From the NCBI GenBank assembly GCA_031402435.1, contig JANNSJ010000015.1:132288-196287 (forward strand): DNA of 64,000 nucleotides, written 5' to 3'. The DNA is from Bacteroidota bacterium. GTDB taxonomy: Bacteria; Bacteroidota; Ignavibacteria; UBA10030; UBA6906. The notes below the pieces were generated by a model. The model had not been told where the DNA came from, made no database searches, and saw nothing but the letters and a program-made list of their open reading frames with translations. The position numbers were made by a program, and so were the translations under genes. Every line of letters begins with the position of its first letter. Positions within the stretch are counted from its first letter, which is position 1. Positions 36,982 through 64,000 of the stretch are shown here, in pieces.

Positions 36982-37012
36982 GCCCGGTCTTTAACAAGGC
37001 CGGGCTTTTGTA
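36982..37012 (+). terminator. Rho-independent terminator after trxA
   Basis: gcccggtc-tttaacaag-gccgggc followed by ttttgtatttg. Confidence 0.6.
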
Positions 37013-37109
37013 TTTGTATCCGCCTGTTTGCAACTCGTATTTGTTTTCGATATTTTTGCAGTCACAAGTTCATTTCATCTCCTTCTTCATTCAATTCCCC
37101 GGAGCTTTC

Positions 37110-40100: not shown

Positions 40101-42782
40101 TCACCGTACGAACGGTCCATCGCTCTCATATCCATTGAGCGTGAAGGGATTATTCAACATTACACCACAACGCTTGTTGGCAGCGCTCCGCAAATCAACA
40201 TTCCGATTCTTAAGGACTATCTCCCCAACGTGTATGTTTCCGTGGTGTTGCTCCAGGGAAGAAATGCCGATGCCGGGAAGACCAAAGAGTCTGATGTTGG
40301 ACGTCCATCATTCAAAGTCGGGTACGTGAAGCTCTCCGTGAGTCCAAAAGAGAAGGAACTGAAACTCACGGCAAGCACAGACCGGAAAGATTACCGACCC
40401 GGCGATACGGTGGAAGTAATTCTGAATGTGAAAGACGCATCGGGCAAAGGAGTTTCCTCTGAAGTAACCCTCAGCGTTGCTGATCTCGGCGTGTTGAACC
40501 TGACAGGATATCGACTGCCGAGGTTGTTCAATGAATTCTATGCCGAGCGACCGCTTGCCGTGAAGACGACAGAGACTCGCATGCATTTAGTTGAGCAGAG
40601 AGAGTATGGAGAGAAAGGTGAGGATGAAGGCGGTGGCGGCGCAAATGAAAAGATGATGGCGGGAGTCGATGCCGAAGGTATCCGAAAAGATTTCAGAGCT
40701 TCTGCATATTGGAACCCATCGATCCTTACTGACTCAAAAGGTGAGGCACATGTACGGTTCAAGCTCCCTGACAATCTTACATCGTTCGAGGTTATGGCCA
40801 TTGCGCACACGCTCAATGCTGAGTTTGGCTATGCCGAAGAGAACTTCACAGTAAGCAAGCCCTTGCTGTTGCAGCCATCATTCCCGAGGTTTGCCCGCGT
40901 TGGAGATTCGTTTGAAGGCGGAGTGATGCTCATGAACTACTCCGGGAAAGAGAAGCGAGTGAATCTTACGATGCGTGTGAGTGGTGTGAAGGGAATGGGT
41001 GATTCATCATTTCTTGTGTTGAAACCGGGGGAAGCTCGCGAAGTGCGAAACAAGTACGCTGCCGATCGCGTTGGACGGGCAACGTTCGTCTTCAAGGCAA
41101 AAACTGATGACGATGCAGATGGATTACAATGGACAATCCCCATCAATGTGCCGCGGACGCGTGAATCAGTGGCGTTGTACGAGTCAACTATAGACAGTCT
41201 GACCAGAGAAAAACTCGTCGCTCCCCAAAACATGTTTACTGAACTTGGCGGCGTTGAGTATACGGCGGCATCCACAGCGATGGTCGGACTCTCAGGAGGT
41301 ATCTCATATCTCTTCGGTTATCCTTACGGATGCCTTGAGCAACGCCTATCGGCAGTTCTTCCAATTATCCTTGCAAAGGACCTCGTCGAGGCGTTCAAAC
41401 TCGACGTATACAAAGATAAGGATTACAAGCAGGTTGTCGAGAAAACGTTGGATGAGATTCCTGCATTCCAGAAATGGAACGGTGGTTATTCATACTGGAA
41501 AAATGTTGATGAGACATGGCCGTATGTTTCCGCATATGCTGTGTATACCCTTGTGCAGGCGAAGCGAGCAGGTTTCCGCGTGAACGAAGGGCAGCTCACG
41601 TTGGGAATGGACTATTTGCGGCGTGTGCTCGATGGAAGTGAACCTTGCAAATATTACGGCGAGTATGCCTGGCGTTCTACACGGGCTCTTATTCTCTATA
41701 CGTTTGCATTGGCCGGCAAACCGGATCATGGATCGATGGAGAAACTGTATGGTGAACGAGGTAAGCTTCCTTTGTTTGCCAGAGCGTATTTACTTCGCGC
41801 ACTCTTCGTCGCCAAGGGCAATGGGAAGATGATTTTAGAACTTGCCCGCGACCTCACGAACCAGGCGAAGATTGCTCCCACTTCGGCTCATTTTGAAGAG
41901 CGTGATGACCAAGGCCTCGATTGGATATTCGATTCCAATACTCGTACAACTGCGCTCGCCATGCAGGCGCTTGTCGAGACACAACCGGAGAATCCGCTCA
42001 TCCCAAAAACAGTCAAATGGCTGTTGGAGAAACGTGAGCAAGGGCGATGGAGGACCACGCAGGAAAATCTCTATGTGGTTGATGCCTTGGCGACATACTT
42101 CAAAACGTATGAAAAGGATGAGCCGCATTTCCGCGCGCAGATTGATCTCGCCGGCAAGACTGTCTTGCAAGAGATGTTTGAAGGGAGGAGTTTCAAGGTT
42201 GTAACCGCCCGTCAATCGTGGACTGATCTGGAGGCAGGAAAGGAATATCCTGTTGATGTAAAGAAGGCAGGAGCTGGACGATTGTACTACGGCGTGCGCA
42301 TGAACTTCTATCCCAAGGCCGCTGCTATTGCGAAAGAGGAAGGCTTCAGCATTATCAAGACTGTCGAGCCGGTGAATGGCGGAGCAATGAAAAATGGAGG
42401 CTTTGCTGCAGGCTCAATGGTTCGCGTTACTCTTTCAGTTGTCACTAATCAGGAGAGACACTTCGTTGTTGTTGATGATCCACTACCCGCGGGATTTGAA
42501 GCTGTGAACAGTTCATTCATCACAACAGCAAGTAACGTCGACGAGTACACGCAGCAACAGGGAAGAGATTGGTGGGAATTCAACCCGTTCAACCACACAG
42601 AAATGAAGGATGACCGTGTGTTATTATTTGGGGATTACCTTCCTGCAGGTGTTCACTCATTCACATATCTGGCGCGGGCGACATCGTTCGGTACGTTCCA
42701 GATGCCATCCACGAGAGTCGAAGGAATGTACGAACCGGAAGTGTTTGGACAAACCGGGGGAAGGATCATCACAATCAAGTAG
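37110..42782 (+). CDS. Bacterial alpha-2-macroglobulin family protein (MG domains, thioester CLEQ)
   Basis: ~1890 aa from MRLSIFVGISTVLL (signal) at 37110. Thioester motif GYPYGCLEQR. Overall size and architecture of YfhM-type A2M. Confidence 0.85.
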   Translation: MRLSIFVGISTVLLTFPSYSQKSTSLQIVVGSPKGEMATIDQAQTIFVSFNEAMVPLKEIPADEDEGPMTVEPKIKGKYRWMGTRTLAFIPTDTLPFSTKYTVTIPVGTKSVAGHSLSKEYRWQFETPRPKVLSTDPSNEQRFVELDHSIRIRFNQRVNPEMASKFISIEERSSSSMNYPAFTSRWPTEEEEKPSNDTRRWQPGSQLPREYTIVLTPTEPLRRGTVYTIRCKKDLPGAQGMLGMNNEFTSSFSTFNELKFVRVKNDDQFNPAQSLVLVFTNPVAVKEVAKLLVFDPPLAVNYDQFGWDYQGEEVAIQLPLLPEKKYTGTIKAGLKDRFGNEIKTDTKFAFRTGSFASYVRMTTGPGVLEAYESHRYPISFMNIDSVHLKMGRISPDRIVPLMRRMDFSYYEQLAQEAGILEDVDTKSEHQSEFSISKMWHIGGARNKQTVKPIELDDVLGSSSLGVALVQVDNRRPDPNHRFYKAVVQVTNLGITAKFSPGSTLVWITHLKDASPVGDANIELRSDSNEVVWKGTTDAKGLAKGPGWESVGLRSDDEWRQPRIWVIVKSDDDVAFSSSDWQQGIEPWQFGIAQDWNPKLEPMQSSLMTDRGLYKAGEQVEIKGVVRVRKDGIWKIPPKNVLKLTVRNPRNEEISVLTPKLSPFGSFAASVPLTSSAPLGYYSMTLSLSEMVKGKETWRDIGSESFRVEAFRAAEFEVTARSEEKRYIVGDTFKGYLNARFLFGAALSNEQISWRVSVTNTSWQPEGFEGYYFGPMPWLSRYTGRNNYRVLVSKQEKLDDKGGIQVSADLKVGEVTGTASLLFEGDVTSPTRQQISGRTSAIVHGSEFYIGVAPSTTFLQTDSTLKYKLITVTHEGKNVFDAQLSVKILQRIWRSVRKAESGGRYAWVSEEDNVVVDSSVVKTGEKPIELSFKTKQAGFYFIEVQGNDKRGNLVLTHAYFYVSGSGYVPWERSNDDKIELVANKTNFAPGDVANILVKSPYERSIALISIEREGIIQHYTTTLVGSAPQINIPILKDYLPNVYVSVVLLQGRNADAGKTKESDVGRPSFKVGYVKLSVSPKEKELKLTASTDRKDYRPGDTVEVILNVKDASGKGVSSEVTLSVADLGVLNLTGYRLPRLFNEFYAERPLAVKTTETRMHLVEQREYGEKGEDEGGGGANEKMMAGVDAEGIRKDFRASAYWNPSILTDSKGEAHVRFKLPDNLTSFEVMAIAHTLNAEFGYAEENFTVSKPLLLQPSFPRFARVGDSFEGGVMLMNYSGKEKRVNLTMRVSGVKGMGDSSFLVLKPGEAREVRNKYAADRVGRATFVFKAKTDDDADGLQWTIPINVPRTRESVALYESTIDSLTREKLVAPQNMFTELGGVEYTAASTAMVGLSGGISYLFGYPYGCLEQRLSAVLPIILAKDLVEAFKLDVYKDKDYKQVVEKTLDEIPAFQKWNGGYSYWKNVDETWPYVSAYAVYTLVQAKRAGFRVNEGQLTLGMDYLRRVLDGSEPCKYYGEYAWRSTRALILYTFALAGKPDHGSMEKLYGERGKLPLFARAYLLRALFVAKGNGKMILELARDLTNQAKIAPTSAHFEERDDQGLDWIFDSNTRTTALAMQALVETQPENPLIPKTVKWLLEKREQGRWRTTQENLYVVDALATYFKTYEKDEPHFRAQIDLAGKTVLQEMFEGRSFKVVTARQSWTDLEAGKEYPVDVKKAGAGRLYYGVRMNFYPKAAAIAKEEGFSIIKTVEPVNGGAMKNGGFAAGSMVRVTLSVVTNQERHFVVVDDPLPAGFEAVNSSFITTASNVDEYTQQQGRDWWEFNPFNHTEMKDDRVLLFGDYLPAGVHSFTYLARATSFGTFQMPSTRVEGMYEPEVFGQTGGRIITIK

Positions 42783-44588: not shown

Positions 44589-46931
44589 ATGATAGGACGA
44601 ATCGGGGTGACAATTGCCGTTGTTGTGCTTCTGCTCTTTGCCTCGGTCTTTCTGCCATTACCGGGAAAGGATTTTCGCAAAGAAGGCATCCATTCGTTGC
44701 GGGTAGTTGATCGGAATGGATTACTTCTGAGGGAGTTTCTGAATGACGAACAAGGAAGGGGACAATGGCGATCTCTTGACCGGGTGGCGTCATCGTTGCA
44801 GAGTGCCACCATTGCAATCGAAGATCGGCGGTTCTACAGTCATGTTGGTGTTGATCCGTTGGCCCTTTTGAGGGCAACGGTTGAAAATGTGAAGTCGATG
44901 CAGTTTGTCTCCGGCGGCTCCACGCTTACGCAGCAAGTCATTCGTAATGTGTACCACCATCAACGCTCAGTTTCGAACAAGGTGATCGAAGCCTGGCGGG
45001 CACTTCGGCTGGAAAGAATGATGAGCAAGGATGCAATTCTGGAACAGTATCTCAATCGAGCGCCGTATGGCAATCAGTTGATTGGAGTAGAAGCGGCTGC
45101 ACAGCATTACTTTGGAAAACCTGCCCACGCGCTTTCGCTTGCCGAGTCGGCATTTCTCGCTGCATTGCCCAATGCGCCGTCCACTCTCAACCCACATCGT
45201 AATCTCGATGCAGCGTTGTCACGACAGCATCTTGTGTTAAGAAGAATGCGGGAACAGGATCTCATTGGTGATGAAGAATATGACCGCGCCGTGAGCCAGC
45301 CGATAACAATAAATTCTCCCGAGGCGGATTTCCGGGCTCCCCATGTCGTTGAGATGGCGGTGGGATCTCGTGCGATGTCTTCTGGTATCTCGTTCGTTCA
45401 AACGACAATCGACTACCCTCTACAGCAGAACATTCAATTTCTTCTCAGGGGCCACCTTGCAACGCTTGCAAAGAAGAATGTCACCAATGGCGCCGTCGTT
45501 GTAATCGAGAATGCAACAGGAGAGGTGTGTGCACTGGTGGGTTCGGCAAATTACTTCGATGAACAACACAACGGACAAGTGAACGGAGCCACGGCTCTGC
45601 GTCAGCCTGGCTCCGCTATCAAGCCATTCACGTATGGATTGGCTCTAGAAGCTGGGTACTCTGCAGCAACCCTTCTGGCTGACATTCCTCTTCACATCAC
45701 TGATGATAAGGGAGATTACATTCCTGAGAATTATGACAAGCGATACCACGGCCCGGTGCGCATGCGAACGGCTCTCGCGTGCTCGTACAATATTCCGGCT
45801 GTGCGGACACTTCAGTTTGTAGGTACCGAAAATCTCCTGCAACGACTCCGCCTTGCGGGCATCAGTTCTCTCACGCGAACTGCCGATTATTACGGGTTTG
45901 GTTTGACGCTGGGGAACGCCGAGGTTTCGCTGTTCGACCTTACGAACGCCTATGCATCAATTGCCAACGGGGGAATGTGGAGGCCTGCAAGAATGGTTCT
46001 TTCCTCCCATGATGTGAACGGAGGAGATCGCGAGGTTGAACCCATGCAGTTTAGACATAGAGTATACGGCGAGAACGTGGCCTTCCTGCTGACGAGCATC
46101 CTCAGCGATCCTGCTGCACGACGGCCTGCGTTCGGTAATGCATTCCACTTCCCCTTTCAATGTGCTGTAAAGACCGGAACAACAAAAGACTACAGGGACA
46201 ATTGGGCGATGGGTTTTACCGCCGAGTATACGGTGGGTGTCTGGGTCGGCAACTTTGATGGAAGTGAGATGCGTGGAGTATCCGGCATAACCGGCGCAGG
46301 ACAGGTCTTTGCAGACGTGATGATGTTGCTGCACATGCCCCCACATGGCAACCTTCCGGGTGAGTTTGTTGCTCCTCGTGAAATGATGCGCGTGGCTATG
46401 TGTCCACGGTCTGGCAAACTTCCCGGTGCTGATTGTAACAAGTCTACAGAAGAATGGTTCATAAGCGGAACTGCACCCGTTGAGCGGTGCGATGTTCATC
46501 GGCGATATCGATTTCAGGGCGAAGCTGGAAGAATGGTGGATCGCGTGTTTGAAGTTCTTCCTGCGCAATTCAGCGAGTGGGCTTCCCAACAACAAATGGA
46601 GAAGCCTCCTTCAGCATCAGTAAGGGTGAACAAGAAAGAGAACAAGACTGCAGATCGAGTTGAACGGCTCACAATCCTCTCACCGAATGACGGAGACTTG
46701 TTTAAACTCGATCCAACTTTACGACGGGAATATCAAACTGTTAAGATTGTTGCCGCGGTTCCGGAGCGCGCCGCAAGTGTGAAGGTTCTTGTAGATGGTG
46801 AGGAATTGCTGGAATATGATCGAAAAGGAGTGTGGTGGCATCTCAAGCAGGGGAGCCATAATCTCCAACTTGTCGGTATGATCCGAAATCGAAACATCAC
46901 GAGCGAGCAAGTAACGATCCACGTAGAATAG
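44589..46931 (+). CDS. pbpC: Penicillin-binding protein 1C (GT51 transglycosylase + transpeptidase)
   Basis: GT51 motifs EDRRFYSHVGVD, GGSTLTQQ. Transpeptidase SAIKPF (SxxK), C-terminal PbpC-type extension. 780 aa. Confidence 0.85.
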   Translation: MIGRIGVTIAVVVLLLFASVFLPLPGKDFRKEGIHSLRVVDRNGLLLREFLNDEQGRGQWRSLDRVASSLQSATIAIEDRRFYSHVGVDPLALLRATVENVKSMQFVSGGSTLTQQVIRNVYHHQRSVSNKVIEAWRALRLERMMSKDAILEQYLNRAPYGNQLIGVEAAAQHYFGKPAHALSLAESAFLAALPNAPSTLNPHRNLDAALSRQHLVLRRMREQDLIGDEEYDRAVSQPITINSPEADFRAPHVVEMAVGSRAMSSGISFVQTTIDYPLQQNIQFLLRGHLATLAKKNVTNGAVVVIENATGEVCALVGSANYFDEQHNGQVNGATALRQPGSAIKPFTYGLALEAGYSAATLLADIPLHITDDKGDYIPENYDKRYHGPVRMRTALACSYNIPAVRTLQFVGTENLLQRLRLAGISSLTRTADYYGFGLTLGNAEVSLFDLTNAYASIANGGMWRPARMVLSSHDVNGGDREVEPMQFRHRVYGENVAFLLTSILSDPAARRPAFGNAFHFPFQCAVKTGTTKDYRDNWAMGFTAEYTVGVWVGNFDGSEMRGVSGITGAGQVFADVMMLLHMPPHGNLPGEFVAPREMMRVAMCPRSGKLPGADCNKSTEEWFISGTAPVERCDVHRRYRFQGEAGRMVDRVFEVLPAQFSEWASQQQMEKPPSASVRVNKKENKTADRVERLTILSPNDGDLFKLDPTLRREYQTVKIVAAVPERAASVKVLVDGEELLEYDRKGVWWHLKQGSHNLQLVGMIRNRNITSEQVTIHVE

Positions 46932-50951: not shown

Positions 50952-52718
50952 GTGGCTTCGTTCAAGAAACGCACTCACACATGTGGTGAATTGCGCGCTA
51001 CAGACATTGGAAAAGCCGTAACCCTTACCGGCTGGGTCGATACGCGACGTGACCTTGGCGGTGTTGTGTTCATTGATTTACGTGACCGGTATGGCAGGAT
51101 GCAGGTGGTATTCAATCCGCAGACAGATGCAGCGGTTCACGGACTTGCCGGTACATTGCGTAGTGAATTCGTCATCTCTGTAAGTGGAAAGGTTGAGCGC
51201 CGGCCGGAGGGAACCGTAAATACTGATCTGGTAACCGGGGAGGTTGACGTGATGGCAACGGAACTCATGGTCCTGAATAAAGCTGATACTCCGCCGTTTC
51301 CCATTGATGACAAGGTTGAGGCGAACGAAGACCTTCGCCTCAAGTATCGCTATCTTGATTTGCGCAGACCGGCACTACAGCAGAACATGATTTTCCGGCA
51401 CAGGATGTATCAACTTGTTCATCGCCATTTTGACGAGCTGAACTTTATTGAAGTCGAGACACCGGTGTTGATGAAAAGTACTCCGGAAGGTGCGCGTGAC
51501 TATCTTGTCCCGAGCCGTGTGCAACGCGGGAAATTCTATGCGCTTCCACAATCTCCGCAAACATATAAGCAACTACTCATGGTGGCCGGACTTGACCGGT
51601 ATGTCCAGATTGTGAAATGTTTCCGTGATGAAGACCTTCGTGCGGATCGACAACCCGAGTTCACGCAGATCGATGTGGAGATGTCATTCATTGATGAGTC
51701 CGACATCCAGGCGGTAACGGAAGTGTTGATCCAGAAGATGTTCAAGGAACTGAAGGGGATTGATGTTTCATTGCCGTTGCCTCGCTTGACATACAAGCAG
51801 GCAATGGAATGGTATGGCAGTGACAAGCCGGACACAAGGTTTGATTTAAAAGTCACGACACTGAATGATCTCGTCAAGGATTCGGGCTTCAAAGTGTTCT
51901 CTGATGTTGTGAAGAAGGGCGGAGTGGTTGCCGGGTTTGTTGTTCCTGGTGGCGCGTCGTTCACACGCAACCAGATGGACAACCTCGTGGACTTTACCAA
52001 GAATCTGGGTGCTGGCGGGCTTGCGTACTTCAAGTGGACGGAGAATGGTCTTGAAGCGGCAATCGAGAAATTCCTCGGCAAAGAGCTGATGCAGAAGATT
52101 GCCGACGCAATGGGCGCAAAGAAGGGCGACCTGATGTTGTTCGCCTCGGATGTGTGGAGCAAGGCATACAGCATTCTCGGCACATTACGTCTCGAAATGG
52201 CAAGACGGCTTAACCTCATCGACGAAAGCAAATTCAATCTGTTATGGGTAACGGAGTTTCCGCTGTTCGATTGGAGTGAAGAAGAGAAACGTTTCGTCTC
52301 CGTCCATCACCCATTCACGTCGCCCCATCTCGATGACCTTGCATTGCTGGACACTGATCTTGGGAAAGTGCGGGCACGTGCGTATGATCTAGTTCTTAAC
52401 GGGACAGAAATTGCCGGGGGCAGTATTCGTATTCACGATTCAGCGCTGCAACAGAAAGCATTCAAACTGCTTGGGATTGAAGAAGAGGAAGCCAACAAAA
52501 AATTCGGGTTCTTGCTGAATGCATTCAAGTATGGCGCACCGCCGCACGGCGGCATTGCCTTCGGGTTTGACCGCGTCGCAATGCTCATGACCGGGTCGAA
52601 GTCTATTCGTGATGTGATTGCCTTCCCCAAGACTGCCAGTGCCGTCTCGCTGATGGATGAAGCGCCGAGCGAGGTGGATGAAAAGCAATTGAGAGAATTA
52701 CACATTCGAGTCGTCTGA
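50952..52718 (+). CDS. aspS: Aspartyl-tRNA synthetase
   Basis: OB-fold N-domain (GWVDTRRDLGGVVFIDLRD), class II motifs (FRDEDLRADRQPEFTQID, GGIAFGFDRVAML). GTG start. Confidence 0.9.
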   Translation: MASFKKRTHTCGELRATDIGKAVTLTGWVDTRRDLGGVVFIDLRDRYGRMQVVFNPQTDAAVHGLAGTLRSEFVISVSGKVERRPEGTVNTDLVTGEVDVMATELMVLNKADTPPFPIDDKVEANEDLRLKYRYLDLRRPALQQNMIFRHRMYQLVHRHFDELNFIEVETPVLMKSTPEGARDYLVPSRVQRGKFYALPQSPQTYKQLLMVAGLDRYVQIVKCFRDEDLRADRQPEFTQIDVEMSFIDESDIQAVTEVLIQKMFKELKGIDVSLPLPRLTYKQAMEWYGSDKPDTRFDLKVTTLNDLVKDSGFKVFSDVVKKGGVVAGFVVPGGASFTRNQMDNLVDFTKNLGAGGLAYFKWTENGLEAAIEKFLGKELMQKIADAMGAKKGDLMLFASDVWSKAYSILGTLRLEMARRLNLIDESKFNLLWVTEFPLFDWSEEEKRFVSVHHPFTSPHLDDLALLDTDLGKVRARAYDLVLNGTEIAGGSIRIHDSALQQKAFKLLGIEEEEANKKFGFLLNAFKYGAPPHGGIAFGFDRVAMLMTGSKSIRDVIAFPKTASAVSLMDEAPSEVDEKQLRELHIRVV

Positions 52719-54079
52719 TGAAAGAGAAAATTAGAATTGCCAGTGGCCAGGGATTCTGGGGCGACTTACTTACGGCTCCCTATGACCAGGTAACAAAAGG
52801 GCCGGTTGATTACATGATGATGGACTATCTTGCCGAAGTCACGATGTCCATCATGCAGAAGCAGAAGAGAAAAGATCCAAGCCTTGGGTATGCCAAGGAT
52901 CTGATTCCACTTATGGAACAAATCCTACCCATTATTGTTGAGAGGAATATCAAGGTCATCACGAACGGCGGTGGGGTAAATCCGGGAGCATGTCGTGATG
53001 CGATCTTCAGCGTGGCCAGGAAACTTGGTATCAAGGGATTGAATATTGGCGTGGTTCTTGGCGATGATATTCTTGATCAGTTGGATGTGCTTAAGGTAAA
53101 AGGTGTTCCGCTTAACAATATGGAGACCGGCGAGAAGCTTGATTCGGTGCGAAAGAAGGTCATGAGCGCAAACGTATACTTCGGCGCATGGCCGGTTGTT
53201 GAAGCATTACAACAAGGGGCTCAAATCGTTATCACAGGACGAACTACAGACACAGGTCTCACACTTGCTCCAATGATTCATGAGTTTGGTTGGAAAGAAA
53301 ATGATTGGGATAAGATTGCTGCCGGAACCGTTGCCGGACATATCCTCGAATGCGGTGGACAGGCAAGCGGGGGAAACTTCTCAGCTGATTGGAAGTCTGT
53401 TCCGGATCTTGCGCATATTGGCTTTCCTATAGCTGAAGCATATCCTAATGGCGAAGTGATAATCACCAAGCATGAAAATACGGGCGGACTGGTTTCGGTG
53501 CAGACGGTGAAGGAACAGCTCATGTACGAGATCGGAAATCCAGCAAACTACATCACACCTGACTGCATTGCTGACTTCACAACAATCAGGCTTCAAGAGG
53601 TTGGCAAGAATAGGGTTAGAATGTTTGATGTGAAGGGACAACCAGCTACAGATTTATACAAAGTCTCAATGTCATATCTCGACGGATACACAGCCATCGG
53701 CACTCTCACGTACGCATGGCCTGACGCTTTGGAGAAGGCGAAGGCTGCAGATCAAATCCTTCGCACACGTCTTGCTGACCTGGGCCTCAAGTTTGATGAG
53801 ATACGGACTGAGTTCATGGGATATAACTCGTGTCACGGTGCGCTTTCCGTTATGCCGAACGAGATTAACGAGGTCGTGCTCCGCTTTGGCGTAAGAGGGT
53901 ACGATCATAACGCGGTTGAACGCTTTGGCAAAGAACTGGCTCCATTGATTCTCACTGGTCCGCCCGCCGTGACTGGATTTGCCGGTGGAAGGCCGAAACC
54001 CAGTGAAGTGATTGCCTACTGGCCGGCATTGATGCCGAAGTCTGCCGTAACGCCTGTTGTCGAAGTGGCAACAGTGTAA
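52718..54079 (+). CDS. DUF1446 (acyclic terpene utilisation AtuA-like) family protein
   Basis: N-terminal IASGQGFWGD, DYMMMDYLAEVTMSI. 453 aa, typical size. Confidence 0.65.
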   Translation: MKEKIRIASGQGFWGDLLTAPYDQVTKGPVDYMMMDYLAEVTMSIMQKQKRKDPSLGYAKDLIPLMEQILPIIVERNIKVITNGGGVNPGACRDAIFSVARKLGIKGLNIGVVLGDDILDQLDVLKVKGVPLNNMETGEKLDSVRKKVMSANVYFGAWPVVEALQQGAQIVITGRTTDTGLTLAPMIHEFGWKENDWDKIAAGTVAGHILECGGQASGGNFSADWKSVPDLAHIGFPIAEAYPNGEVIITKHENTGGLVSVQTVKEQLMYEIGNPANYITPDCIADFTTIRLQEVGKNRVRMFDVKGQPATDLYKVSMSYLDGYTAIGTLTYAWPDALEKAKAADQILRTRLADLGLKFDEIRTEFMGYNSCHGALSVMPNEINEVVLRFGVRGYDHNAVERFGKELAPLILTGPPAVTGFAGGRPKPSEVIAYWPALMPKSAVTPVVEVATV

Positions 54080-54108: not shown

Positions 54109-54438
54109 ATGAAAATCCAATTGATACACCTGGCCCACGCTCGCTCCGGCGACAAAGGAGACACTGGAAATGTTGGCGTCATAGCTCGCAAGGATGAGTA
54201 CTACCCATTGCTTGTGAAGTACCTGACCGTCGACAGGGTGCAGAAGCATTTCGAAGGGATTGCATTGGGGAAGGTCGAGCGGTTTGAGATCCCGAATCTT
54301 GGGGCGATCAACTTCCTGCTCCACGAATCACTTGGTGGCGGCGGGACAAAGTCATTGAAGAATGATGCACAGGGAAAGACCCTGAGCAGCGCCATGCTGC
54401 GTATGGAATTGGATATCGACGAGAAAATCAATCTCTAA
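54109..54438 (+). CDS. DUF4387-like small protein (usual partner of DUF1446)
   Basis: LAHARSGDKGDTGNVGVIA... motif. Positioned immediately downstream of the AtuA-like gene, as in many genomes. Confidence 0.55.
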   Translation: MKIQLIHLAHARSGDKGDTGNVGVIARKDEYYPLLVKYLTVDRVQKHFEGIALGKVERFEIPNLGAINFLLHESLGGGGTKSLKNDAQGKTLSSAMLRMELDIDEKINL

Positions 54439-54449
54439 CAGGACAAACC

Positions 54450-55560
54450 ATGTTTGAAGCCCAGAAAGAATCGATCAAAGAGTTGCACAAGCGTTTGACC
54501 ACACTCAGAGGTTATCTTTGACATCGATGGAAAGGAAATAACCGTTGCCGGATTGCAGGCGAAGACGGAAACGCCAACCTTCTGGGATGACAATGTCGAC
54601 GCTCAAAAGGTGATGTCGCAGATCAGCGAGTTGAATGAGTGGATCAACGGATGGAAGAATCTCAACCGCATCGTCAACGATTCGACGTCCCTTATCGAAC
54701 TTGCCGAAGAATCCAAAGACGAGTCCTTTGTTCCTGAAATAGAAAAGGATCTGGAGACAGTTCGTAAGGGCATAGAAGAGCTTGAATTTCGTAACATGCT
54801 CAGTGCAGAGGATGATGAACGCAATGCAATCCTTACCGTGCATTCCGGAGCGGGCGGTACTGAATCTCAAGATTGGGCGGAAATGCTCCTGCGAATGTAT
54901 ACGCGTTGGGCTGAGCGAAAGGGGTATAAGGTTTCTCTTGTTGACCGGCAGGATGGGGATGGTGCCGGAATCAAGAGCGCAACAGTTGAAGTAGTTGGTA
55001 AATACGCCTACGGTTATATGAAGGCAGAGAACGGTGTTCATCGACTTGTCCGCATTTCGCCTTTCGATTCAAACGCCCGCCGGCACACTTCATTTGCGTC
55101 AGTGTTTGTGTATCCGGAACTGGATGATGACGTTGCCATTGAGATAAATCCCGTTGACTTGAAGATTGACACGTATCGAGCTGGAGGAAAGGGAGGACAG
55201 AACGTCAACAAAGTCGAGACTGCCGTTCGCATTACACACGTCCCATCGGGAATCATCGTTGCCTGTCAACAGGAGCGATCGCAGTTCCAGAACAAAGAGC
55301 GTGCGCTCAAAATGCTGAAGTCCCAATTGTACCAGCGGCGCAAAGAGGAAGAAGAAGCCCGCCTGAGTGCCATCGAAAGTACAAAGAAGAGAATCGAGTG
55401 GGGGAGCCAGATTCGTTCGTATGTCTTCCATCCGTACAACATGGTCAAGGATCACCGGACGGAAGTCGAGACGAGTAATGTTCAGGGCGTGATGGACGGA
55501 GCGCTTGATGAATTCATCAAAGCGTACTTGATGGAGTCCAGCTCGAAAGGCACTGCGTAA
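54450..55560 (+). CDS. prfB: Peptide chain release factor 2, with programmed +1 ribosomal frameshift (ORF0 54450..54518, +1 frame 54520..55560)
   Basis: ORF0 [23 protein letters not shown] ends at CTT TGA C (54516-54522), preceded by SD-like agagg; the +1 frame continues DIDGKEI... SPF and GGQ motifs present. Confidence 0.85.
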
Positions 55561-59204: not shown

Positions 59205-60281
59205 CAGTCGGATAACTCTGATCACGATTCTTGATTGGGGTGTTCTACCCTAGATGCCCTGTGGCCGCAATTGAAATCGCTGAGCACGCCTGCACAATCG
59301 ATCTTCCAACACGTGACGTGCGACTGTTTGCTTCTGATCATGTTTCATGTAAGAACACACTTCCCAACTTCCACGGCAACATCCAGATACGTTCTTTCCA
59401 CCTTCGGGATGTCGAAGGGAGGAGCGAGCGACGCCGCTAGTCAATTCCTTGTATAGCAAAGCATTGTGTTTAGCGGCTGGTTGGAGAAGCTAATGGCCAA
59501 CAATTGCCTTGCAGACCCTGATCTCCAATTCCTCGACCGAGTCATAGCGCATTCCTTCGATGATCTCCCACACAAATTCCCGGCTCACGTTCAGGTCATG
59601 TGCAATTTCCGATGCAATATCTATCGTAGCCTTGAACATCGCTTTGCCCTCCACATTTTGTGCAATTAATAATGCACCAAAAGGCTTGCCAAAAATAGTT
59701 TTGTTCAATATCGAATCAAAAGTAGAAACCGTGAAAACTGGGGGGGAAGGAATGACACCAATAGCGTAGTTTGGTATTGCCAAATTGGTTGAAACGCGGA
59801 CTTTACATCGTGGAAACCAATCCGCACTTGTCGTTAATGATAATGATACGAAGGTGAAGATGAGGAATGCCGTGCATGTTGTTCTTAGATAGGTATTTCG
59901 CACTTGACATTCTTGAGCGCATTCGCTACGTTTACCGTGTAATTGTGCTTTCGGTCTGGCTTGTGCCGATCAAAAGTGACCTTCACTTTCTTGGTGATTT
60001 CCCGCTGGACCACGGAACAAAATGCGCAATGTTGATTCTCGGCCTGATCCATGATGTTGATGAGCGAAGTCCCCACCTATATGCTTGCTGTGTGTATGAG
60101 CGAGATGCTGGCCTCTTGCGCCTGCTGGCAATTCGATATCACATATGGCAAGACCAACCTGAAGCTTGTACAACATACGTAACGCATGTGACCGATGAAC
60201 GGTCAAAGTTTTCCCGGCTGTGATAACGTTTTTGGTTTTGCAATGTGAAAGAACATCATTGAACCTTGATGCAGGGATCCC

Positions 60282-60986
60282 GTGCCAACGTTTCGCTTTA
60301 GACATGATGTTGCAGCCAAGGTGACGAATGCTGCAAAAAAAGTTGATGACAAGAACCCGGAGGATGTCAAGGAAAAGAATCCTTCTAGCGGCGCCACAAG
60401 AGAGAAAATTGTGCCGGGTGTCGAAGCAACAATACCGGAGTCTTCCGGGGTAGTAACAGCAGAACCCGACAACCAGAATGCCTTCGTTGCTAAAGGTGAT
60501 CAGACAGAAACAGTTACGACAGAAGACACGGCGACGACTGAGAGTGAAGCGATACAACAAGCCGTTGAACCCGCGTCCGATGAAAACACCATAGATATGA
60601 AAAATCCGTTCGCAGATGAAATTTCTGCTCCCGATCAGGTTGCAGTTGAAATGATCTCTGATATTGTGGTAACAGAGAGTGCTTCAACAGGCGATGTAGC
60701 TATCACAGATGCGGCAGCTCCTGATTTCGACAATCTGTTTGGCGATCCACTTTTTGTGCAAACGTCAGAAGGACTCTCTTCGTGTGAATTGGAACCTTCG
60801 ATCACCGATGAGAACACTGGTCTGGTCAGCGAGCTTAAGACAGAATTGATGAAGGAATTGAGAGAAGAATTGAAAGACGAATTGCGAGCTGAAATCAAGG
60901 AAGAGCTCAAGGCTGAATTGAAGGCAAAGCTGAAAGTAGAACTTAGAAGCAAACTAAAAAACGATTCCGGAACCGAAGAAAGTTAA
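60282..60986 (+). CDS. Acidic low-complexity protein with C-terminal EELK/AELK heptad-like repeats
   Basis: Asp/Glu/Thr-rich body. C-terminus ELMKELREELKDELRAEIKEELKAELKAKLKVELRSKLK. GTG start uncertain. Confidence 0.45.
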   Translation: MPTFRFRHDVAAKVTNAAKKVDDKNPEDVKEKNPSSGATREKIVPGVEATIPESSGVVTAEPDNQNAFVAKGDQTETVTTEDTATTESEAIQQAVEPASDENTIDMKNPFADEISAPDQVAVEMISDIVVTESASTGDVAITDAAAPDFDNLFGDPLFVQTSEGLSSCELEPSITDENTGLVSELKTELMKELREELKDELRAEIKEELKAELKAKLKVELRSKLKNDSGTEES

Positions 60987-61042
60987 CCTGGATTCGCGCA
61001 AGGGATGAAAACCGGATCCAGTCCTCTGAAAGGAGTCATGTT

Positions 61043-61780
61043 GTGGCAATACCGATAATACCTCAAATACTGACTCAGGCCGACTGGGATCGCCAGAAGG
61101 GTCTTCTTGCGAAGATGGCTGGTGAGACCGGTATCGGAGCGCAAATGAACAAAGTAAAGGCCGCATACAATGCCGTTGACTGGGGCAAGTTTGATGCGAA
61201 GATTGCGTGCCAGAATACAAAGGACGTAACAGTGGTCGAGAGCGCTCTTGCGGATGCAAAGGGCGAGTACGCGAAAGTTGAAACCGTGAGAAAGGAATTG
61301 CGGTCACTTGAGGCCATTGCAAGGAAAACGCAGGCAAAGTTCAAGAGCAACCGTGCGATACCAAGCTCGTCAACCGATCATGTTGGGAAAATTGCAAAGG
61401 CAGCAGATCAGATGACCGTCGCCTGCAAGAGCATGGACGCGGAGTTCAAGTCGTTTGAGGAAATGAAGAAGAGAATTGTGGAACTTGGTGAGGTGTCCAA
61501 GAAAGCCCTTCAGTCGTATCTTGTGAAGTGTCAGGGAGGGATATCACAGGTGAATGCAAAACCGACAGACGAAAGTTTTGAAAAATTCTGGAAGGAAAAT
61601 ATTCGAGGTCTTTCGGCGGCGTTGGCATTGCAAAAGGACTTGTCTGAACACCATGGTGCTTGGAAAACCATGAGCAGCGATTCGTTCAAACCAAAGAAAG
61701 GCGCTGATGCAAATACCATCAAGGCGAAGGTAAAGCAAGTTGAGTCCGCATTGAATAAGCTCAAAACCGCAGTCAAGTAG
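61043..61780 (+). CDS. Hypothetical alpha-helical Ala/Lys-rich protein
   Basis: 245 aa. GTG start with aaaggag SD 8 nt upstream. No recognisable family. Confidence 0.55.
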   Translation: MAIPIIPQILTQADWDRQKGLLAKMAGETGIGAQMNKVKAAYNAVDWGKFDAKIACQNTKDVTVVESALADAKGEYAKVETVRKELRSLEAIARKTQAKFKSNRAIPSSSTDHVGKIAKAADQMTVACKSMDAEFKSFEEMKKRIVELGEVSKKALQSYLVKCQGGISQVNAKPTDESFEKFWKENIRGLSAALALQKDLSEHHGAWKTMSSDSFKPKKGADANTIKAKVKQVESALNKLKTAVK

Positions 61781-61833
61781 AAGAGGGTTACCATCGTAGT
61801 ACTCGAGAGTGAAATAGTGAACAGGCACAAAGC

Positions 61834-63180
61834 GTGAAACTTCAGAAAGTCCAGTGGAAGGATGGCGATGTCATCACCGAGCAGCACTTCCGCAGTCTTG
61901 AGTCGTGGAGCGAGATGACACATGCGGTTCTTGCAACACAAGCGTCAGGTCACGGGTTGTTGCATGTTGTCGCGGCAGAGGGTGTGTGTAACGATTGTTC
62001 TTCGGTGGCAGTGAAGAACCTGCAGGGTACACAATACCAGATCACGCTTCAACGGTTCCAGGGTATTACCAGCAAGGGGAGAATTGTTTCCCTGTTCGAT
62101 ATGCAACAGTTTGACGTCAACCTGCGAACGACCGAACGTGACAGCGATGGCTTCTTTGTTCTCTTCCTGATCCCTGTGGAAGGTGAAGGAGGTGGTTCAA
62201 AAGGGGGCGATGTGACGAGTGGTGAACCCGTTCTCTATGAACCACTCTACAAAGCTCAGGTCACCGATGAAGGTCACGACGGTTTGTGTGTTGGCCGGTT
62301 CAAAGCGGATGGCGCAATCATTGCACACGATCCGAATTTTCTTCCGCTTTGCTATACGATCAACGCCTCGCCGCAAAGCCTGCGGCGTTTTGAATCCATC
62401 GGAAAGACCTACCAGCGGCTAATGGATTCTCTCGAGGCCTATGTAAAGGCGCTTGTGAATCGTAAGGGTCTTGAACCCATCTGGGTGTTCTCAGTTGAAT
62501 TGTTCAGGCTCCTCAACCGGCACAAATCGATACTCTCCAACAGCAATCAACAGTCGCAAGTGTACTTTGTTTCCATCCAGGCACTCATTGACGCAATTGT
62601 CGGTGAACTGAAATTACTTGCGTCTGAATACAAGGAAGCGAAGCTTCTTGCCGATGTGCACTCTGCGATCGACCACCTTTCACATCCATTGTTGACGGTT
62701 TCGCTTGACATGAACATGACGCGACCCTATGACGTGGTGAAGGATGCCATTGATGAGGTCGCTCACCTGTTGAGCCGTTTCCCTGAGGGTCCGGCGGTCG
62801 AGGCATCGCTTGCGATCAAGGAAATGACGTTCAGCAAGGGCACTGCATATAACAAACTGGTAATTCAGTTCGTCGAAGAGATCCCGTATTCCAGGGAACA
62901 AAGTAAACTCCTCTTTAAGTTAAGGGATTTCTCAACGCGCGAGCCCTCCACTTGGGATATCCGTCTTGCTCTTGGTGGTGATATGCCGTACGGCAGTCTG
63001 CCGCAGTTGAACAACCTGTTGAAGCGCGTCGGCTCGGACGAGTTTGATTTCCGGATTGAATGTCCGGGTGAGGTCATTGGCACCGGCAAGATGCGTCAGT
63101 TAACGATGTACCTGCCCCCACCTCTTGGCGAAAGCGTTGACACACCCAGGGCGCGGGTCACCGTTTCCATGGTTTCATGA
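61834..63180 (+). CDS. tssK: TssK-like protein (type VI secretion baseplate subunit family, VasE)
   Basis: 448 aa (typical TssK size). N-terminus KVQWKDGDVITEQHFRS resembles the TssK consensus (W.EGMFLRPQHFQ). Internal DPNFLPLCYTINASPQSL resembles the E. coli TssK segment DPRFIPPLLTLSASPSLM. Confidence 0.55.
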   Translation: MKLQKVQWKDGDVITEQHFRSLESWSEMTHAVLATQASGHGLLHVVAAEGVCNDCSSVAVKNLQGTQYQITLQRFQGITSKGRIVSLFDMQQFDVNLRTTERDSDGFFVLFLIPVEGEGGGSKGGDVTSGEPVLYEPLYKAQVTDEGHDGLCVGRFKADGAIIAHDPNFLPLCYTINASPQSLRRFESIGKTYQRLMDSLEAYVKALVNRKGLEPIWVFSVELFRLLNRHKSILSNSNQQSQVYFVSIQALIDAIVGELKLLASEYKEAKLLADVHSAIDHLSHPLLTVSLDMNMTRPYDVVKDAIDEVAHLLSRFPEGPAVEASLAIKEMTFSKGTAYNKLVIQFVEEIPYSREQSKLLFKLRDFSTREPSTWDIRLALGGDMPYGSLPQLNNLLKRVGSDEFDFRIECPGEVIGTGKMRQLTMYLPPPLGESVDTPRARVTVSMVS

Positions 63181-63199
63181 AATATCATTCGATGAATTA

Positions 63200-64000
63200 T
63201 GCATCAGGCTTCAACTGACATAGGAAGAGACTTCACGCTCAAGTACGAATCGATTGTGAAGCATCTTGTCTCGCTGGAAATGACAGGGCGCGTTGCTGAT
63301 GAACATGGCTTCGCCTCAACGCTTGCGGAGTACTTTGACTTTATGAAGAACCTGCCCGAGATGCTTGCGGGGTCAGACTTTGGCTACACCGCCCTCTACG
63401 AAGTGGATCGTGTACTGGAAGGGTTTTACTCGGAAGCGGCAATGCAACTCTACCAGGAAAGGCCGAAGGAGATGCGCAGTATCGTCATAGACTTCTCTGC
63501 CCTTCTGCAGAAGTTTTATCTCATGCCTAAACTGACGCAAGTCGATGGACGCTACGGCAAGCTTCCAGGCGTCGAGCGATTCTATGCGAATTGGAAAGAG
63601 GATCTCGGACGTGATCTCAACGGTGCGAAACCGGCAACGGAGTACGAACGCGTTTGCGCTGTCGCCGATGTTCTGGTCAAGAGGACTGAACTCAGCATCG
63701 AAGTGCGCTATTTTCTTATCTCCAAACTCGGCGAGATTGTTGTAACCCTGGGAGTTGATCTGGATTTTGTACAGAGCCGCCTTCGCAACTTTGCCGATCA
63801 CATCGCCAGCCGGGAGCCGTTTGAAGACAGCGTTGTTGGAGGGGAGGTACTGTTGAACCTCCAGGTGCTGAAAACACTTGGACATGACATGAAGAGTTCA
63901 GGTATTCCCGTGGATAGCCTCGCAAAGGCAATGCGTTATTGGAGCAGCCGGGACCAGTTTCTTGACACCATGTTCAAAAGATGGAAATGGACTTGGCTCA
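63200..64000 (+). CDS. Hypothetical protein, 5' partial view (ORF continues beyond window end)
   Basis: Open frame from ATG 63200 to the window edge (>266 codons). MHQASTDIGRDFTLKYESIVKHLVSLEMTGRV... Not in the supplied ORF track, presumably because no stop lies within the window. Confidence 0.5.

What the first reader, a model, noticed from the sequence alone, without database searches (positions are those of the whole stretch)
61834..64000. Apparently orphan TssK-like baseplate gene, flanked by unknown proteins and lacking other T6SS genes in >4 kb of context: possible non-canonical TssK-based system
The 448-aa product matches TssK in size, in the N-terminal W-x-DG...QHF(R/Q) motif (KVQWKDGDVITEQHFRS) and in an internal block (DPNFLPLCYTINASPQSL vs E. 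coli TssK DPRFIPPLLTLSASPSLM).

Canonical loci place tssK beside tssJ/tssL/tssM or sheath/baseplate genes. Here the upstream neighbours are the acidic-repeat and helical unknowns. The downstream neighbour (63200->, >266 aa, runs off the window) is also unrecognisable; it is not obviously DotU/TssL, TssE or TssA.

TssK is structurally related to phage receptor-binding-protein shoulder domains. This could be a divergent T6SS (for example a Bacteroidota-type variant), or a different TssK-derived membrane-anchoring module.
Basis: partly seen in the sequence, partly recalled or inferred. Interest (0 to 1): 0.7.

Follow-up and report, generated by a model that had tools for sequence, protein, structure and literature searches.

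The report
First gene of a divergent T6SS cluster
The "orphan" TssK-like gene is a real but very divergent baseplate gene that opens a type VI secretion gene cluster cut off by the window edge; the cluster is unusual because a dedicated GTPase always follows tssK where the usual membrane-anchor gene would sit.

Summary
The 448-aa ORF at 61834..63180 is real and is a distant TssK. TIGR03353 gives E=2.8e-9 and PF05936 E=6.5e-5, both below the curated cut-offs. The 14 best Foldseek hits of its AlphaFold model against the PDB are all TssK.

It is not orphan. A public contig (L008) is 100% identical to window 60921..64000 and continues the sequence. Its gene order is tssK, a 730-aa GTPase, a 250-aa unknown, ClpV, Hcp-like paralogues, a putative TssB, TssC (PF17541, the model in which the Bacteroidota-type TssC is found), then VgrG. 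Orthologous loci add putative TssE and TssF, TssG, PAAR, a Tae4-type effector and a Ser/Thr kinase.

The system is still not a textbook one. All of these points hold:
- tssK is followed by the GTPase in all 8 loci that show both genes, down to 24-29% TssK identity.
- The GTPase has conserved G1, G3 and G4 motifs and no transmembrane segment.
- Its family has only 61 relatives among 1.84 billion protein clusters.
- No TssN, TssP, TssJLM or TssA was detected.

Verdict: a new variant of a known kind, a T6SSiii-related lineage in uncultured Bacteroidota. Interest is moderate.

The parts
61834..63180 (+). tssK-like baseplate gene (448 aa), the first gene of the T6SS cluster
63181..63198 (+). 18-nt tssK-GTPase intergenic spacer, suggesting an operon junction
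   Evidence: Read from the sequence. The same tight spacing, 4-47 nt, is seen in related loci.
63199..64000 (+). First 267 codons (helical N-terminal domain) of a 730-aa soluble GTPase that is conserved directly downstream of tssK. It is cut by the window end; the full length is P0082 / L008:2279-4471
   Evidence: 59% identity from residue 1 to the L001 728-aa protein. L008 is identical to the window. G1, G3 and G4 motifs are conserved. MMR_HSR1 and DO-GTPase2 hits. PDB profile hits to G-alpha13, Arf1 and Rab3. Synteny.

Best explanation
The gene 61834..63180 encodes a highly divergent TssK, the trimeric baseplate protein that links the TssE/F/G wedge to the cell-envelope anchor. It is the promoter-proximal gene of a chromosomal type VI secretion cluster that continues beyond the window.

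Gene order:
- Shown for this genome through VgrG: tssK, GTPase, 250-aa unknown, clpV, Hcp-like, putative tssB, three Hcp-like genes, tssC, vgrG.
- Shown in orthologous clusters: putative tssE, putative tssF, tssG, then PAAR and effector genes and a transmembrane Ser/Thr kinase.

The sheath protein matches PF17541, the Pfam TssC model in which the Bacteroidota-type TssC is found. The hosts are uncultured Bacteroidota (Kapaibacteria-like MAGs). The system therefore belongs to a deep, rare branch related to T6SSiii.

Inferred mechanism: TssK trimers sit on TssF2G wedges through the N-terminal shoulder. ClpV recycles the contracted TssBC sheath. VgrG and PAAR carry peptidoglycan-targeting effectors, so this is an antibacterial weapon.

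Inferred and less certain: the soluble 730-aa GTPase always encoded next to tssK takes the place that tssN occupies in canonical T6SSiii. It may act as a nucleotide-switch partner of TssK that controls baseplate recruitment or assembly, possibly under the kinase pathway.
For: TssK identity:
- TIGR03353 E=2.8e-9 over residues 4-271; PF05936 E=6.5e-5.
- Foldseek ranks 1-14 are TssK chains at probability 1.00.

Not orphan:
- L008 is 100% identical to window 60921..64000 over 3080 nt.
- L008 carries ClpV, TssC (PF17541, 111.8 bits) and VgrG (TIGR03361, E=1e-34) downstream.

Orthologous clusters:
- TssG is found with PF06996 at 37.6 bits, above its cut-off.
- They also show PAAR, a Tae4 effector (E=1.1e-16) and a Ser/Thr kinase.
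- A profile of the Hcp-like proteins hits PDB 6bdc 'Hcp1' at full length, E=0.0075.

GTPase:
- GxSxxGK[ST], DYxG and [NT]KxD are invariant across relatives of 30-100% identity.
- A family profile hits G-alpha13, Arf1, Rab3 and EngA.
- DO-GTPase2 matches 15 of 33 members, best E=3.3e-15.
- It lies directly after tssK in all 8 loci that show both genes, and is present in 3 more truncated loci.
- The family has only 61 relatives among 1.84 billion representatives.

Context:
- Canonical T6SSiii places tssN between tssK and tssG, and tssN and tssP are nearly ubiquitous there (PMC10781749).
- The genes upstream of tssK differ between lineages. tssK is therefore the cluster boundary.
Against: - Both TssK profile scores fall below the curated cut-offs: 22.3 against 23.4 bits, and 36.6 against 100 bits.
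- A family profile finds no TssK among PDB sequences.
- Residues 1-49 of the model are low confidence.
- TssE, TssF and TssB are assigned only by position, size and conservation. PDB profile searches found nothing for them.
- For this exact genome the sequence seen ends shortly after VgrG, so TssE/F/G are shown only in orthologues with 57-63% TssK identity.
- The role of the GTPase is inferred from synteny alone. Its model was poor (pLDDT 56) and had no significant structural match.
- Absence of TssN and TssP rests on HMM non-detection and hydropathy within about 10 kb. T6SSiii genes are often split over several loci.
Confidence: 0.88

Rival explanations
1. This is an ordinary canonical T6SSiii. 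The membrane complex TssN/O/P/Q/R exists but is too divergent to detect or is encoded at another locus, and the GTPase is a lineage-specific accessory or regulator rather than a replacement.
For: - The TssC type is PF17541.
- A 195-aa lipoprotein-like protein after the kinase gives a weak TssQ_fam hit: E=9.5e-5, 22.9 bits against a cut-off of 65.
- T6SSiii loci are often split, and TssO/Q/R are often missed by HMMs.
- More distant loci (L004, L005) do carry single- and multi-TM proteins beside tssK.
Against: - tssN and tssP are nearly ubiquitous and detectable in described T6SSiii, with tssN next to tssK.
- Here there is no transmembrane protein between tssK and tssG in L007, L012 or L022.
- No TssN or TssP hit was found.
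- The position after tssK is always taken by the GTPase.
Confidence: 0.3
2. This is a genuinely orphan TssK-derived module that works with its unknown neighbours independently of any contractile sheath.
For: Within the window alone, no other T6SS gene is recognisable.
Against: - The identical contig L008 continues into ClpV, TssC and VgrG.
- The same holds for all 8 related loci that reach far enough downstream.
- The upstream unknowns are not conserved with tssK.
Confidence: 0.02
3. The cluster is an extracellular or cytoplasmic contractile injection system (eCIS, or T6SSiv-like) and not a membrane-anchored T6SS. That would explain why no membrane complex is seen.
For: - No TssJLM or TssN/P was detected.
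- All conserved unknowns in the close clade are soluble.
Against: - ClpV, TssK, TssG and a T6SS-type TssC are present. From my own knowledge, eCIS and T6SSiv lack ClpV and TssK and use Afp-type baseplates.
- Tae4 and PAAR cargo are typical of T6SS.
Confidence: 0.06
4. The TssK resemblance is spurious, and the ORF encodes an unrelated protein.
For: - Scores fall below the curated cut-offs.
- Identity to solved TssK structures is only 11-15%.
Against: - Two profile databases, the fold search and the genomic context all point to TssK.
- A T6SS baseplate needs a TssK, and no other candidate exists in the cluster.
Confidence: 0.02

Closest known systems
T6SSiii of Bacteroidota (Bacteroides fragilis / Flavobacterium johnsoniae type; Russell et al. 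2014 from my own knowledge; Bongiovanni et al. 2024, PMC10781749)
   Same: - TssC matches PF17541 and not the proteobacterial VipB model.
- ClpV, VgrG, TssG, TssK and several Hcp paralogues are present.
- TssJ/L/M and TssA are absent.
- The hosts are labelled Bacteroidota and carry T9SS CTD proteins.
- PAAR and Tae4-type cargo are present.
   Different: - There is no detectable TssN between tssK and tssG, and no TssP.
- A soluble 730-aa GTPase always follows tssK.
- Nearly all core proteins are too divergent for the curated HMM cut-offs.
- A Ser/Thr kinase lies at the distal end of the cluster.
- The family is very rare: 12 TssK, 46 TssC and 61 GTPase relatives were found.
TssK of T6SSi (EAEC TssK, PDB 5m30, 5mwn, 6n38, 6giy; 5y0e)
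   Same: - The predicted three-part architecture matches: beta-sandwich shoulder, helical neck and C-terminal head.
- It is the best Foldseek match.
- The N-terminal W-x-DG...QHF motif region aligns to TIGR03353.
   Different: - Identity is only 11-15%.
- The C-terminal head has a family-specific invariant YLPPPxGE motif.
- The gene neighbours are not tssJ/L/M.
Cytoplasmic NTPase domain of TssM/IcmF, and the PpkA-Fha threonine-phosphorylation pathway of T6SSi (from my own knowledge of the field)
   Same: - A P-loop NTPase is genetically coupled to TssK.
- A transmembrane Ser/Thr kinase is present in the cluster.
- 2 of 33 members of the GTPase family carry FHA domains.
   Different: - No sequence relationship to IcmF/TssM domains was detected.
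- The protein is soluble, with NKxD GTP specificity and a C-terminal coiled coil.
DO-GTPase1/2 (Pfam PF19975 and PF19993, 'Double-GTPase' of conflict systems) and Arf/G-alpha-type TRAFAC GTPases
   Same: - G1, G3 and G4 motifs are conserved.
- These are the best Pfam hits among family members (best E=3.3e-15).
- PDB profile hits go to G-alpha13, Arf1 and Rab3.
   Different: - There is a single GTPase domain, flanked by a 300-aa helical N-terminal domain and a coiled-coil C-terminus.
- The window's own protein scores below the cut-off (18.7 against 27 bits).
- The context is a T6SS cluster.

Membership tests
TssK (PF05936 / TIGR03353) | Statistically significant match to the family profiles | tested here: met
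   TIGR03353 E=2.8e-9 over residues 4-271; PF05936 E=6.5e-5.
TssK (PF05936 / TIGR03353) | Score reaches the curated family cut-off | tested here: not met
   22.3 against 23.4 bits for Pfam, and 36.6 against 100 bits for NCBIfam. It is a remote relative, not an equivalog by sequence.
TssK (PF05936 / TIGR03353) | Shoulder, neck and head fold of solved TssK | tested here: met
TssK (PF05936 / TIGR03353) | Encoded within a T6SS cluster that has sheath, spike and wedge genes | tested here: met
   L008 is identical to the window and carries ClpV, TssC and VgrG. TssG is found in orthologous loci.
TssK (PF05936 / TIGR03353) | Forms trimers that bind TssF2G and the membrane anchor | not testable with these tools
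   No multimer prediction or experiment was available.
T6SSiii (Bacteroidota type) | TssC matching PF17541, the Pfam model in which the Bacteroidota-type TssC is found | tested here: met
   111.8 bits for L008 and 109.5 bits for L001; no other TssC or VipB family was listed.
T6SSiii (Bacteroidota type) | ClpV (TssH), VgrG (TssI) and TssG present | tested here: met
   TIGR03345 E=4e-185; TIGR03361 E=1e-34; PF06996 at 37.6 bits against a cut-off of 24.6.
T6SSiii (Bacteroidota type) | TssB, TssD (Hcp), TssE and TssF present | tested here: inconclusive
   The Hcp-like profile hits PDB 6bdc Hcp1 at E=0.0075, and PF17642 gives E=0.031. The TssB, TssE and TssF candidates are conserved, syntenic and of the right size, but have no profile or PDB hit.
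T6SSiii (Bacteroidota type) | TssN (multi-TM hub) encoded between tssK and tssG, and TssP present | tested here: not met
   No Pfam or NCBIfam hit. No TM protein lies between tssK and tssG in L007, L012 or L022. The position after tssK is held by a soluble GTPase. This applies only to the roughly 20 kb seen; other loci of the genomes were not examined.
T6SSiii (Bacteroidota type) | TssO, TssQ and TssR present | tested here: inconclusive
   There is only a weak TssQ_fam hit, E=9.5e-5 and 22.9 bits against a cut-off of 65, for the L007 195-aa protein.
T6SSiii (Bacteroidota type) | Host belongs to Bacteroidota | tested here: inconclusive
   Relatives are labelled Bacteroidota, Bacteroidetes, Kapabacteria or Kapaibacterium MAGs. 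The window encodes a T9SS CTD protein.
T6SSi (proteobacterial type) | TssJ, TssL and TssM membrane complex, and TssA | tested here: not met
   No hits in any cluster protein scanned.
eCIS / T6SSiv | Afp-type baseplate, with no ClpV and no TssK (defining features from my own knowledge) | tested here: not met
   ClpV, TssK and TssG are present.
TRAFAC-class GTPase (downstream neighbour) | G1 P-loop, G3 DxxG and G4 [NT]KxD motifs | tested here: met
   GRSNVGKSS, DYRGG and NKID are conserved to 30% identity. PDB profile hits go to G-alpha13, Arf1, Rab3 and EngA.
DO-GTPase2 (PF19993) | Score above the Pfam gathering cut-off | tested here: inconclusive
   The window genome's protein scores 18.7 bits against a cut-off of 27. 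15 of 33 family members match, best E=3.3e-15.

The most novel reading that the evidence does not exclude
These clusters may represent an undescribed T6SS architecture, a deep sister lineage of T6SSiii in Kapaibacteria-like Bacteroidota. In it, a soluble Arf/G-alpha-like GTPase is genetically locked to tssK and replaces TssN (T6SSiii) or the TssL/TssM cytoplasmic domains (T6SSi) as the docking and assembly partner of the baseplate. Baseplate recruitment would then be controlled by a GTP switch, possibly downstream of the cluster's Ser/Thr kinase.
Probability: 0.3. Interest if true: 0.7.

Novelty: new variant of a known kind. Interest (0 to 1): 0.42.

Why it matters
As originally stated, an orphan TssK founding a non-T6SS module, the finding dissolves into a window-edge effect.

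What remains is a rare and very divergent T6SS lineage, known only from metagenome-assembled genomes. Standard profiles miss most of its core genes. It shows no recognisable membrane complex, and it has a conserved GTPase next to tssK.

How the baseplate is tethered and triggered differs between T6SS classes. The T6SSiii answer, TssN, was found only in 2024. A lineage that apparently uses a GTPase at this position offers a natural experiment on baseplate-to-envelope coupling. It also means that T6SS surveys based on current HMMs undercount such systems.

Tried and rejected
- **Exact look-up of the window's TssK:** not on record, although the identical gene sits in L008. This is probably a start-codon translation mismatch.
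- **PDB sequence-profile searches:** the TssK family, the close GTPase family, and the TssB, TssE, TssF and p246 candidates gave nothing usable.
- **GTPase AlphaFold model:** poor, with mean pLDDT 56. Its Foldseek search gave no hit with E<=0.001, so nothing is concluded from it.
- **afdb50 fold library:** not available.
- **Metagenome scan with a TssG alignment:** found nothing. The second scan, with TssC, gave 10 loci.
- **Genome-contig scan:** gave only three distant relatives at 25-28% identity and no named close species. The cluster look-up gave no organism names.
- **Literature searches:** T6SS with Ignavibacteria, with Kapabacteria, and with GTPase, TssK and Bacteroidota found nothing relevant.
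- **The upstream 234-aa and 245-aa genes as cluster members:** rejected. They have no homologue in any other locus, and different housekeeping genes lie upstream of tssK elsewhere.
- **The GTPase as a TssM/IcmF fragment:** considered, but no IcmF family hit supports it.
- **Promoter and terminator scan upstream of tssK:** not above shuffled expectation.
Full report
**Observation**

The ORF 61834..63180 (+ strand, GTG start, 448 aa) exists as described. They fall on columns that are invariant in a 12-member family alignment: W8 G11 D12 V13 E16 H18, and D166 P171 T175.

The upstream ORFs 60282..60986 (234 aa, acidic with KEL-type repeats) and 61043..61780 (245 aa, helical) have no significant family match. 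An ORF starts at 63199, 18 nt after the tssK stop, and runs off the window after 267 codons.

**Is it TssK?**

Profile searches give significant scores that fall below the curated cut-offs:
- TIGR03353 gives E=2.8e-9 and 36.6 bits (cut-off 100) over residues 4-271.
- PF05936 gives E=6.5e-5 and 22.3 bits (gathering score 23.4).

A profile of the family finds no TssK among PDB sequences.

An AlphaFold2 model built from the family alignment has mean pLDDT 75, with residues 1-49 and 117-136 poor. It shows a beta-rich N-terminal part, a helical middle (residues 180-315) and a beta-rich C-terminal domain. Foldseek against the PDB returns TssK chains (5y0e, 5m30, 6giy, 6n38, 5mwn) as ranks 1-14, at E=1.9e-10 to 2.8e-6 and probability 1.00, with full-length alignments at 11-15% identity.

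I conclude that this is a remote but genuine TssK homologue.

**Is it orphan?**

No. Only 12 homologues exist in the 5.8-billion-protein collection. In every contig that could be read, the gene is followed by a T6SS cluster.

The decisive evidence is locus L008. It was fetched through the TssC homologue P0017 and is found both on a Logan contig and on a 206.8-kb NCBI contig. L008 is 100% identical to window 60921..64000 over 3080 nt, so it is the continuation of this very genome.

Its gene order is:
- the 234-aa gene (partial) and the 245-aa gene
- tssK (448 aa)
- a 730-aa protein
- a 250-aa protein
- ClpV (743 aa)
- a 147-aa protein
- a 176-aa protein
- proteins of 147, 146 and 149 aa
- TssC (478 aa; PF17541, 111.8 bits)
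- VgrG (589 aa; TIGR03361, E=1e-34)

The contig ends soon after VgrG.

Orthologous clusters L007/L001 and L012, with 57-63% TssK identity, continue further:
- a 148-160-aa protein and a 505-aa protein, at the positions and sizes expected for TssE and TssF
- TssG (PF06996, 37.6 bits, above its cut-off)
- PAAR and peptidoglycan-binding proteins
- a transmembrane Ser/Thr kinase with PEGA and CarboxypepD_reg domains
- a 195-aa protein with a weak TssQ_fam hit

A more distant cluster, L022, carries a Tae4 amidase-effector domain right after tssG (E=1.1e-16).

The 140-150-aa paralogues are Hcp-like. Their profile aligns at full length to PDB 6bdc 'Hcp1' (E=0.0075), and one gives a weak PF17642 hit.

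The genes upstream of tssK differ from lineage to lineage: an amidase; PI3/4-kinase-like and 840-aa proteins; HerA-like and OMP genes; or the two unknowns here. The window's two upstream unknowns have no homologue in any other locus, and no further T6SS gene lies elsewhere in the window. tssK is therefore the first gene of the cluster, and the window simply ends 820 nt into the second gene.

**The downstream neighbour**

The window fragment 63199..64000 is 59% identical, from residue 1, to the 728-aa protein that follows tssK in L001. The full protein (P0082, 730 aa) has these features:
- no hydrophobic segment of transmembrane type (for the L001 orthologue; for the other loci)
- a helical N-terminal 300 residues
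- a central domain with GRSNVGKSS (G1), DYRGG (G3) and NKID (G4)
- a C-terminal coiled coil

The three nucleotide motifs are invariant in relatives down to 30% identity.

Family-level evidence for a GTPase:
- Pfam gives borderline MMR_HSR1 and DO-GTPase2 hits for the window genome's protein.
- Across 33 family members, 15 match DO-GTPase2 (best E=3.3e-15), 10 match DO-GTPase1, and 2 carry FHA domains.
- A family profile hits G-alpha13, Arf1, Rab3, EngA and FtsY in the PDB (best E=8.9e-6).

An exhaustive HMMER search of 1.84 billion cluster representatives finds only 61 relatives. This is not a component of the hundreds of described Bacteroidota T6SSiii.

tblastn mapping of a reference cluster onto 12 loci shows the GTPase gene immediately after tssK in all 8 loci that contain both genes. 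It is also present at the cut end of 3 more loci. These include loci where TssK identity is only 24-29%: L004, L005, L006 and L022. The intergenic gaps are 4-47 nt. The 250-aa third gene is conserved only in the close subclade and matches nothing known.

**Comparison with known systems**

The sheath protein matches PF17541 and not the proteobacterial model. No TssJ/L/M or TssA is found. Relatives are labelled Bacteroidota, Kapabacteria or Kapaibacterium MAGs, and Kapaibacterium sits in Bacteroidota in the NCBI taxonomy. The window also encodes a protease with a T9SS C-terminal sorting domain. The closest known kind is therefore T6SSiii.

In T6SSiii, however, TssN is a multi-TM hub whose cytoplasmic domain recruits TssK. 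It is 'systematically' encoded between tssK and tssG, and tssN and tssP are 'nearly ubiquitous' (PMC10781749). In these clusters:
- no TssN or TssP hit appears
- no transmembrane protein lies between tssK and tssG in L007, L012 or L022
- the slot next to tssK is always filled by the soluble GTPase

This is why I file the system as a new variant of a known kind, not as a plain new member. Two caveats apply. T6SSiii genes are often split over several loci and are divergent, and I saw only about 20 kb per genome. The more distant loci L004 and L005 do have an OmpA-domain single-TM protein and a 3-TM protein beside tssK.

**Mechanism**

Shown:
- gene content and order
- the TssK fold
- the GTPase motifs
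- strict tssK-GTPase synteny
- antibacterial-type cargo in related clusters

Inferred from established T6SS biology:
- TssK trimers decorate TssF2G wedges.
- TssBC contracts around an Hcp tube tipped by VgrG and PAAR.
- ClpV recycles the sheath.

Speculative (about 0.3-0.5):
- The GTPase binds TssK, perhaps through its strongly conserved C-terminal head with the invariant YLPPPxGE motif.
- It would then act as a nucleotide-dependent switch or adaptor for baseplate docking and assembly, functionally analogous to TssN or to the TssM NTPase/TssL cytoplasmic domains.
- It may be wired to the cluster's Ser/Thr kinase, given the FHA fusions in two relatives.

**Verdict**

The TssK call is right. The residual interest lies in a rare, HMM-invisible, T6SSiii-related lineage with a tssK-linked GTPase and no recognisable membrane complex. 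I found no paper describing it, although the library searched is incomplete.

Noticed in passing
window 54450..55560: prfB (RF2) has the canonical +1 programmed frameshift. ATG at 54450 opens a 23-codon frame that ends in CTT TGA C (54516..54522). The long ORF listed from 54553 is in the +1 frame. This is a known feature and not novel.
   Followed up: partly
window 60282..60986 and 61043..61780: Two unknown genes lie just upstream of tssK: a 234-aa acidic protein with C-terminal KEL-type repeats, and a 245-aa helical protein. They have no family match and no homologue in any other T6SS locus of this family. They appear to be lineage-specific and not core components. Whether they are co-transcribed with the cluster, or are cargo, is unknown.
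   Followed up: partly
window 59205..60281: About 1.1 kb has no convincing plus-strand ORF between the DUF3098 gene and the 234-aa gene. A minus-strand 137-aa ORF (59490..59903) has a signal-peptide-like N-terminus and no Pfam hit. Promoter-like sites there are not above shuffled expectation.
   Followed up: partly
window 37008..42782 and 44589..46931: A 1924-aa bacterial alpha-2-macroglobulin lies near a PBP1C-type penicillin-binding protein (Transgly, Transpeptidase and BiPBP_C domains). From my own knowledge, this is the known A2M-PBP1C pairing.
   Followed up: no
window 13269..16112 (- strand): A 946-aa reprolysin-like metalloprotease carries a T9SS C-terminal sorting domain (Por_Secre_tail). 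This points to a host in Bacteroidota or the FCB group.
   Followed up: no
window 52718..54079 and 54109..54438: An AtuA-family gene and an AtuA_ferredoxin-like gene form a pair (acyclic terpene utilisation family), between aspS and prfB.
   Followed up: no
L004:6233-9690 and L005:8927-9925, 13560-15408: In the distant relatives, a 333-aa single-TM protein with a C-terminal OmpA domain, a 479/490-aa protein with about 3 TM segments, and a 114/118-aa TM protein flank the tssK-GTPase pair. They are candidate envelope anchors. The close clade, including the window's genome, lacks them near tssK.
   Followed up: partly
P0082 family (alignment A4): 2 of 33 members of the tssK-linked GTPase family carry FHA / Yop-YscD_cpl domains. 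The clusters also end with a transmembrane Ser/Thr kinase. This hints at a PpkA/Fha-like phosphorylation control.
   Followed up: no
L005 (CAYVTD010000016.1): The contig is labelled 'uncultured Hyphomicrobiales' but encodes proteins with T9SS Por_Secre_tail domains and this Bacteroidota-type T6SS. It is probably a mis-binned contig.
   Followed up: no
L022:16093-16935; L012:15495-16780; L021:20287-21009: Cargo region after tssG in related clusters: a Tae4 amidase-effector domain (E=1.1e-16), PAAR, a LysM/PG_binding protein, and a weak Tlde1 hit. Together these suggest peptidoglycan-targeting antibacterial effectors.
   Followed up: partly
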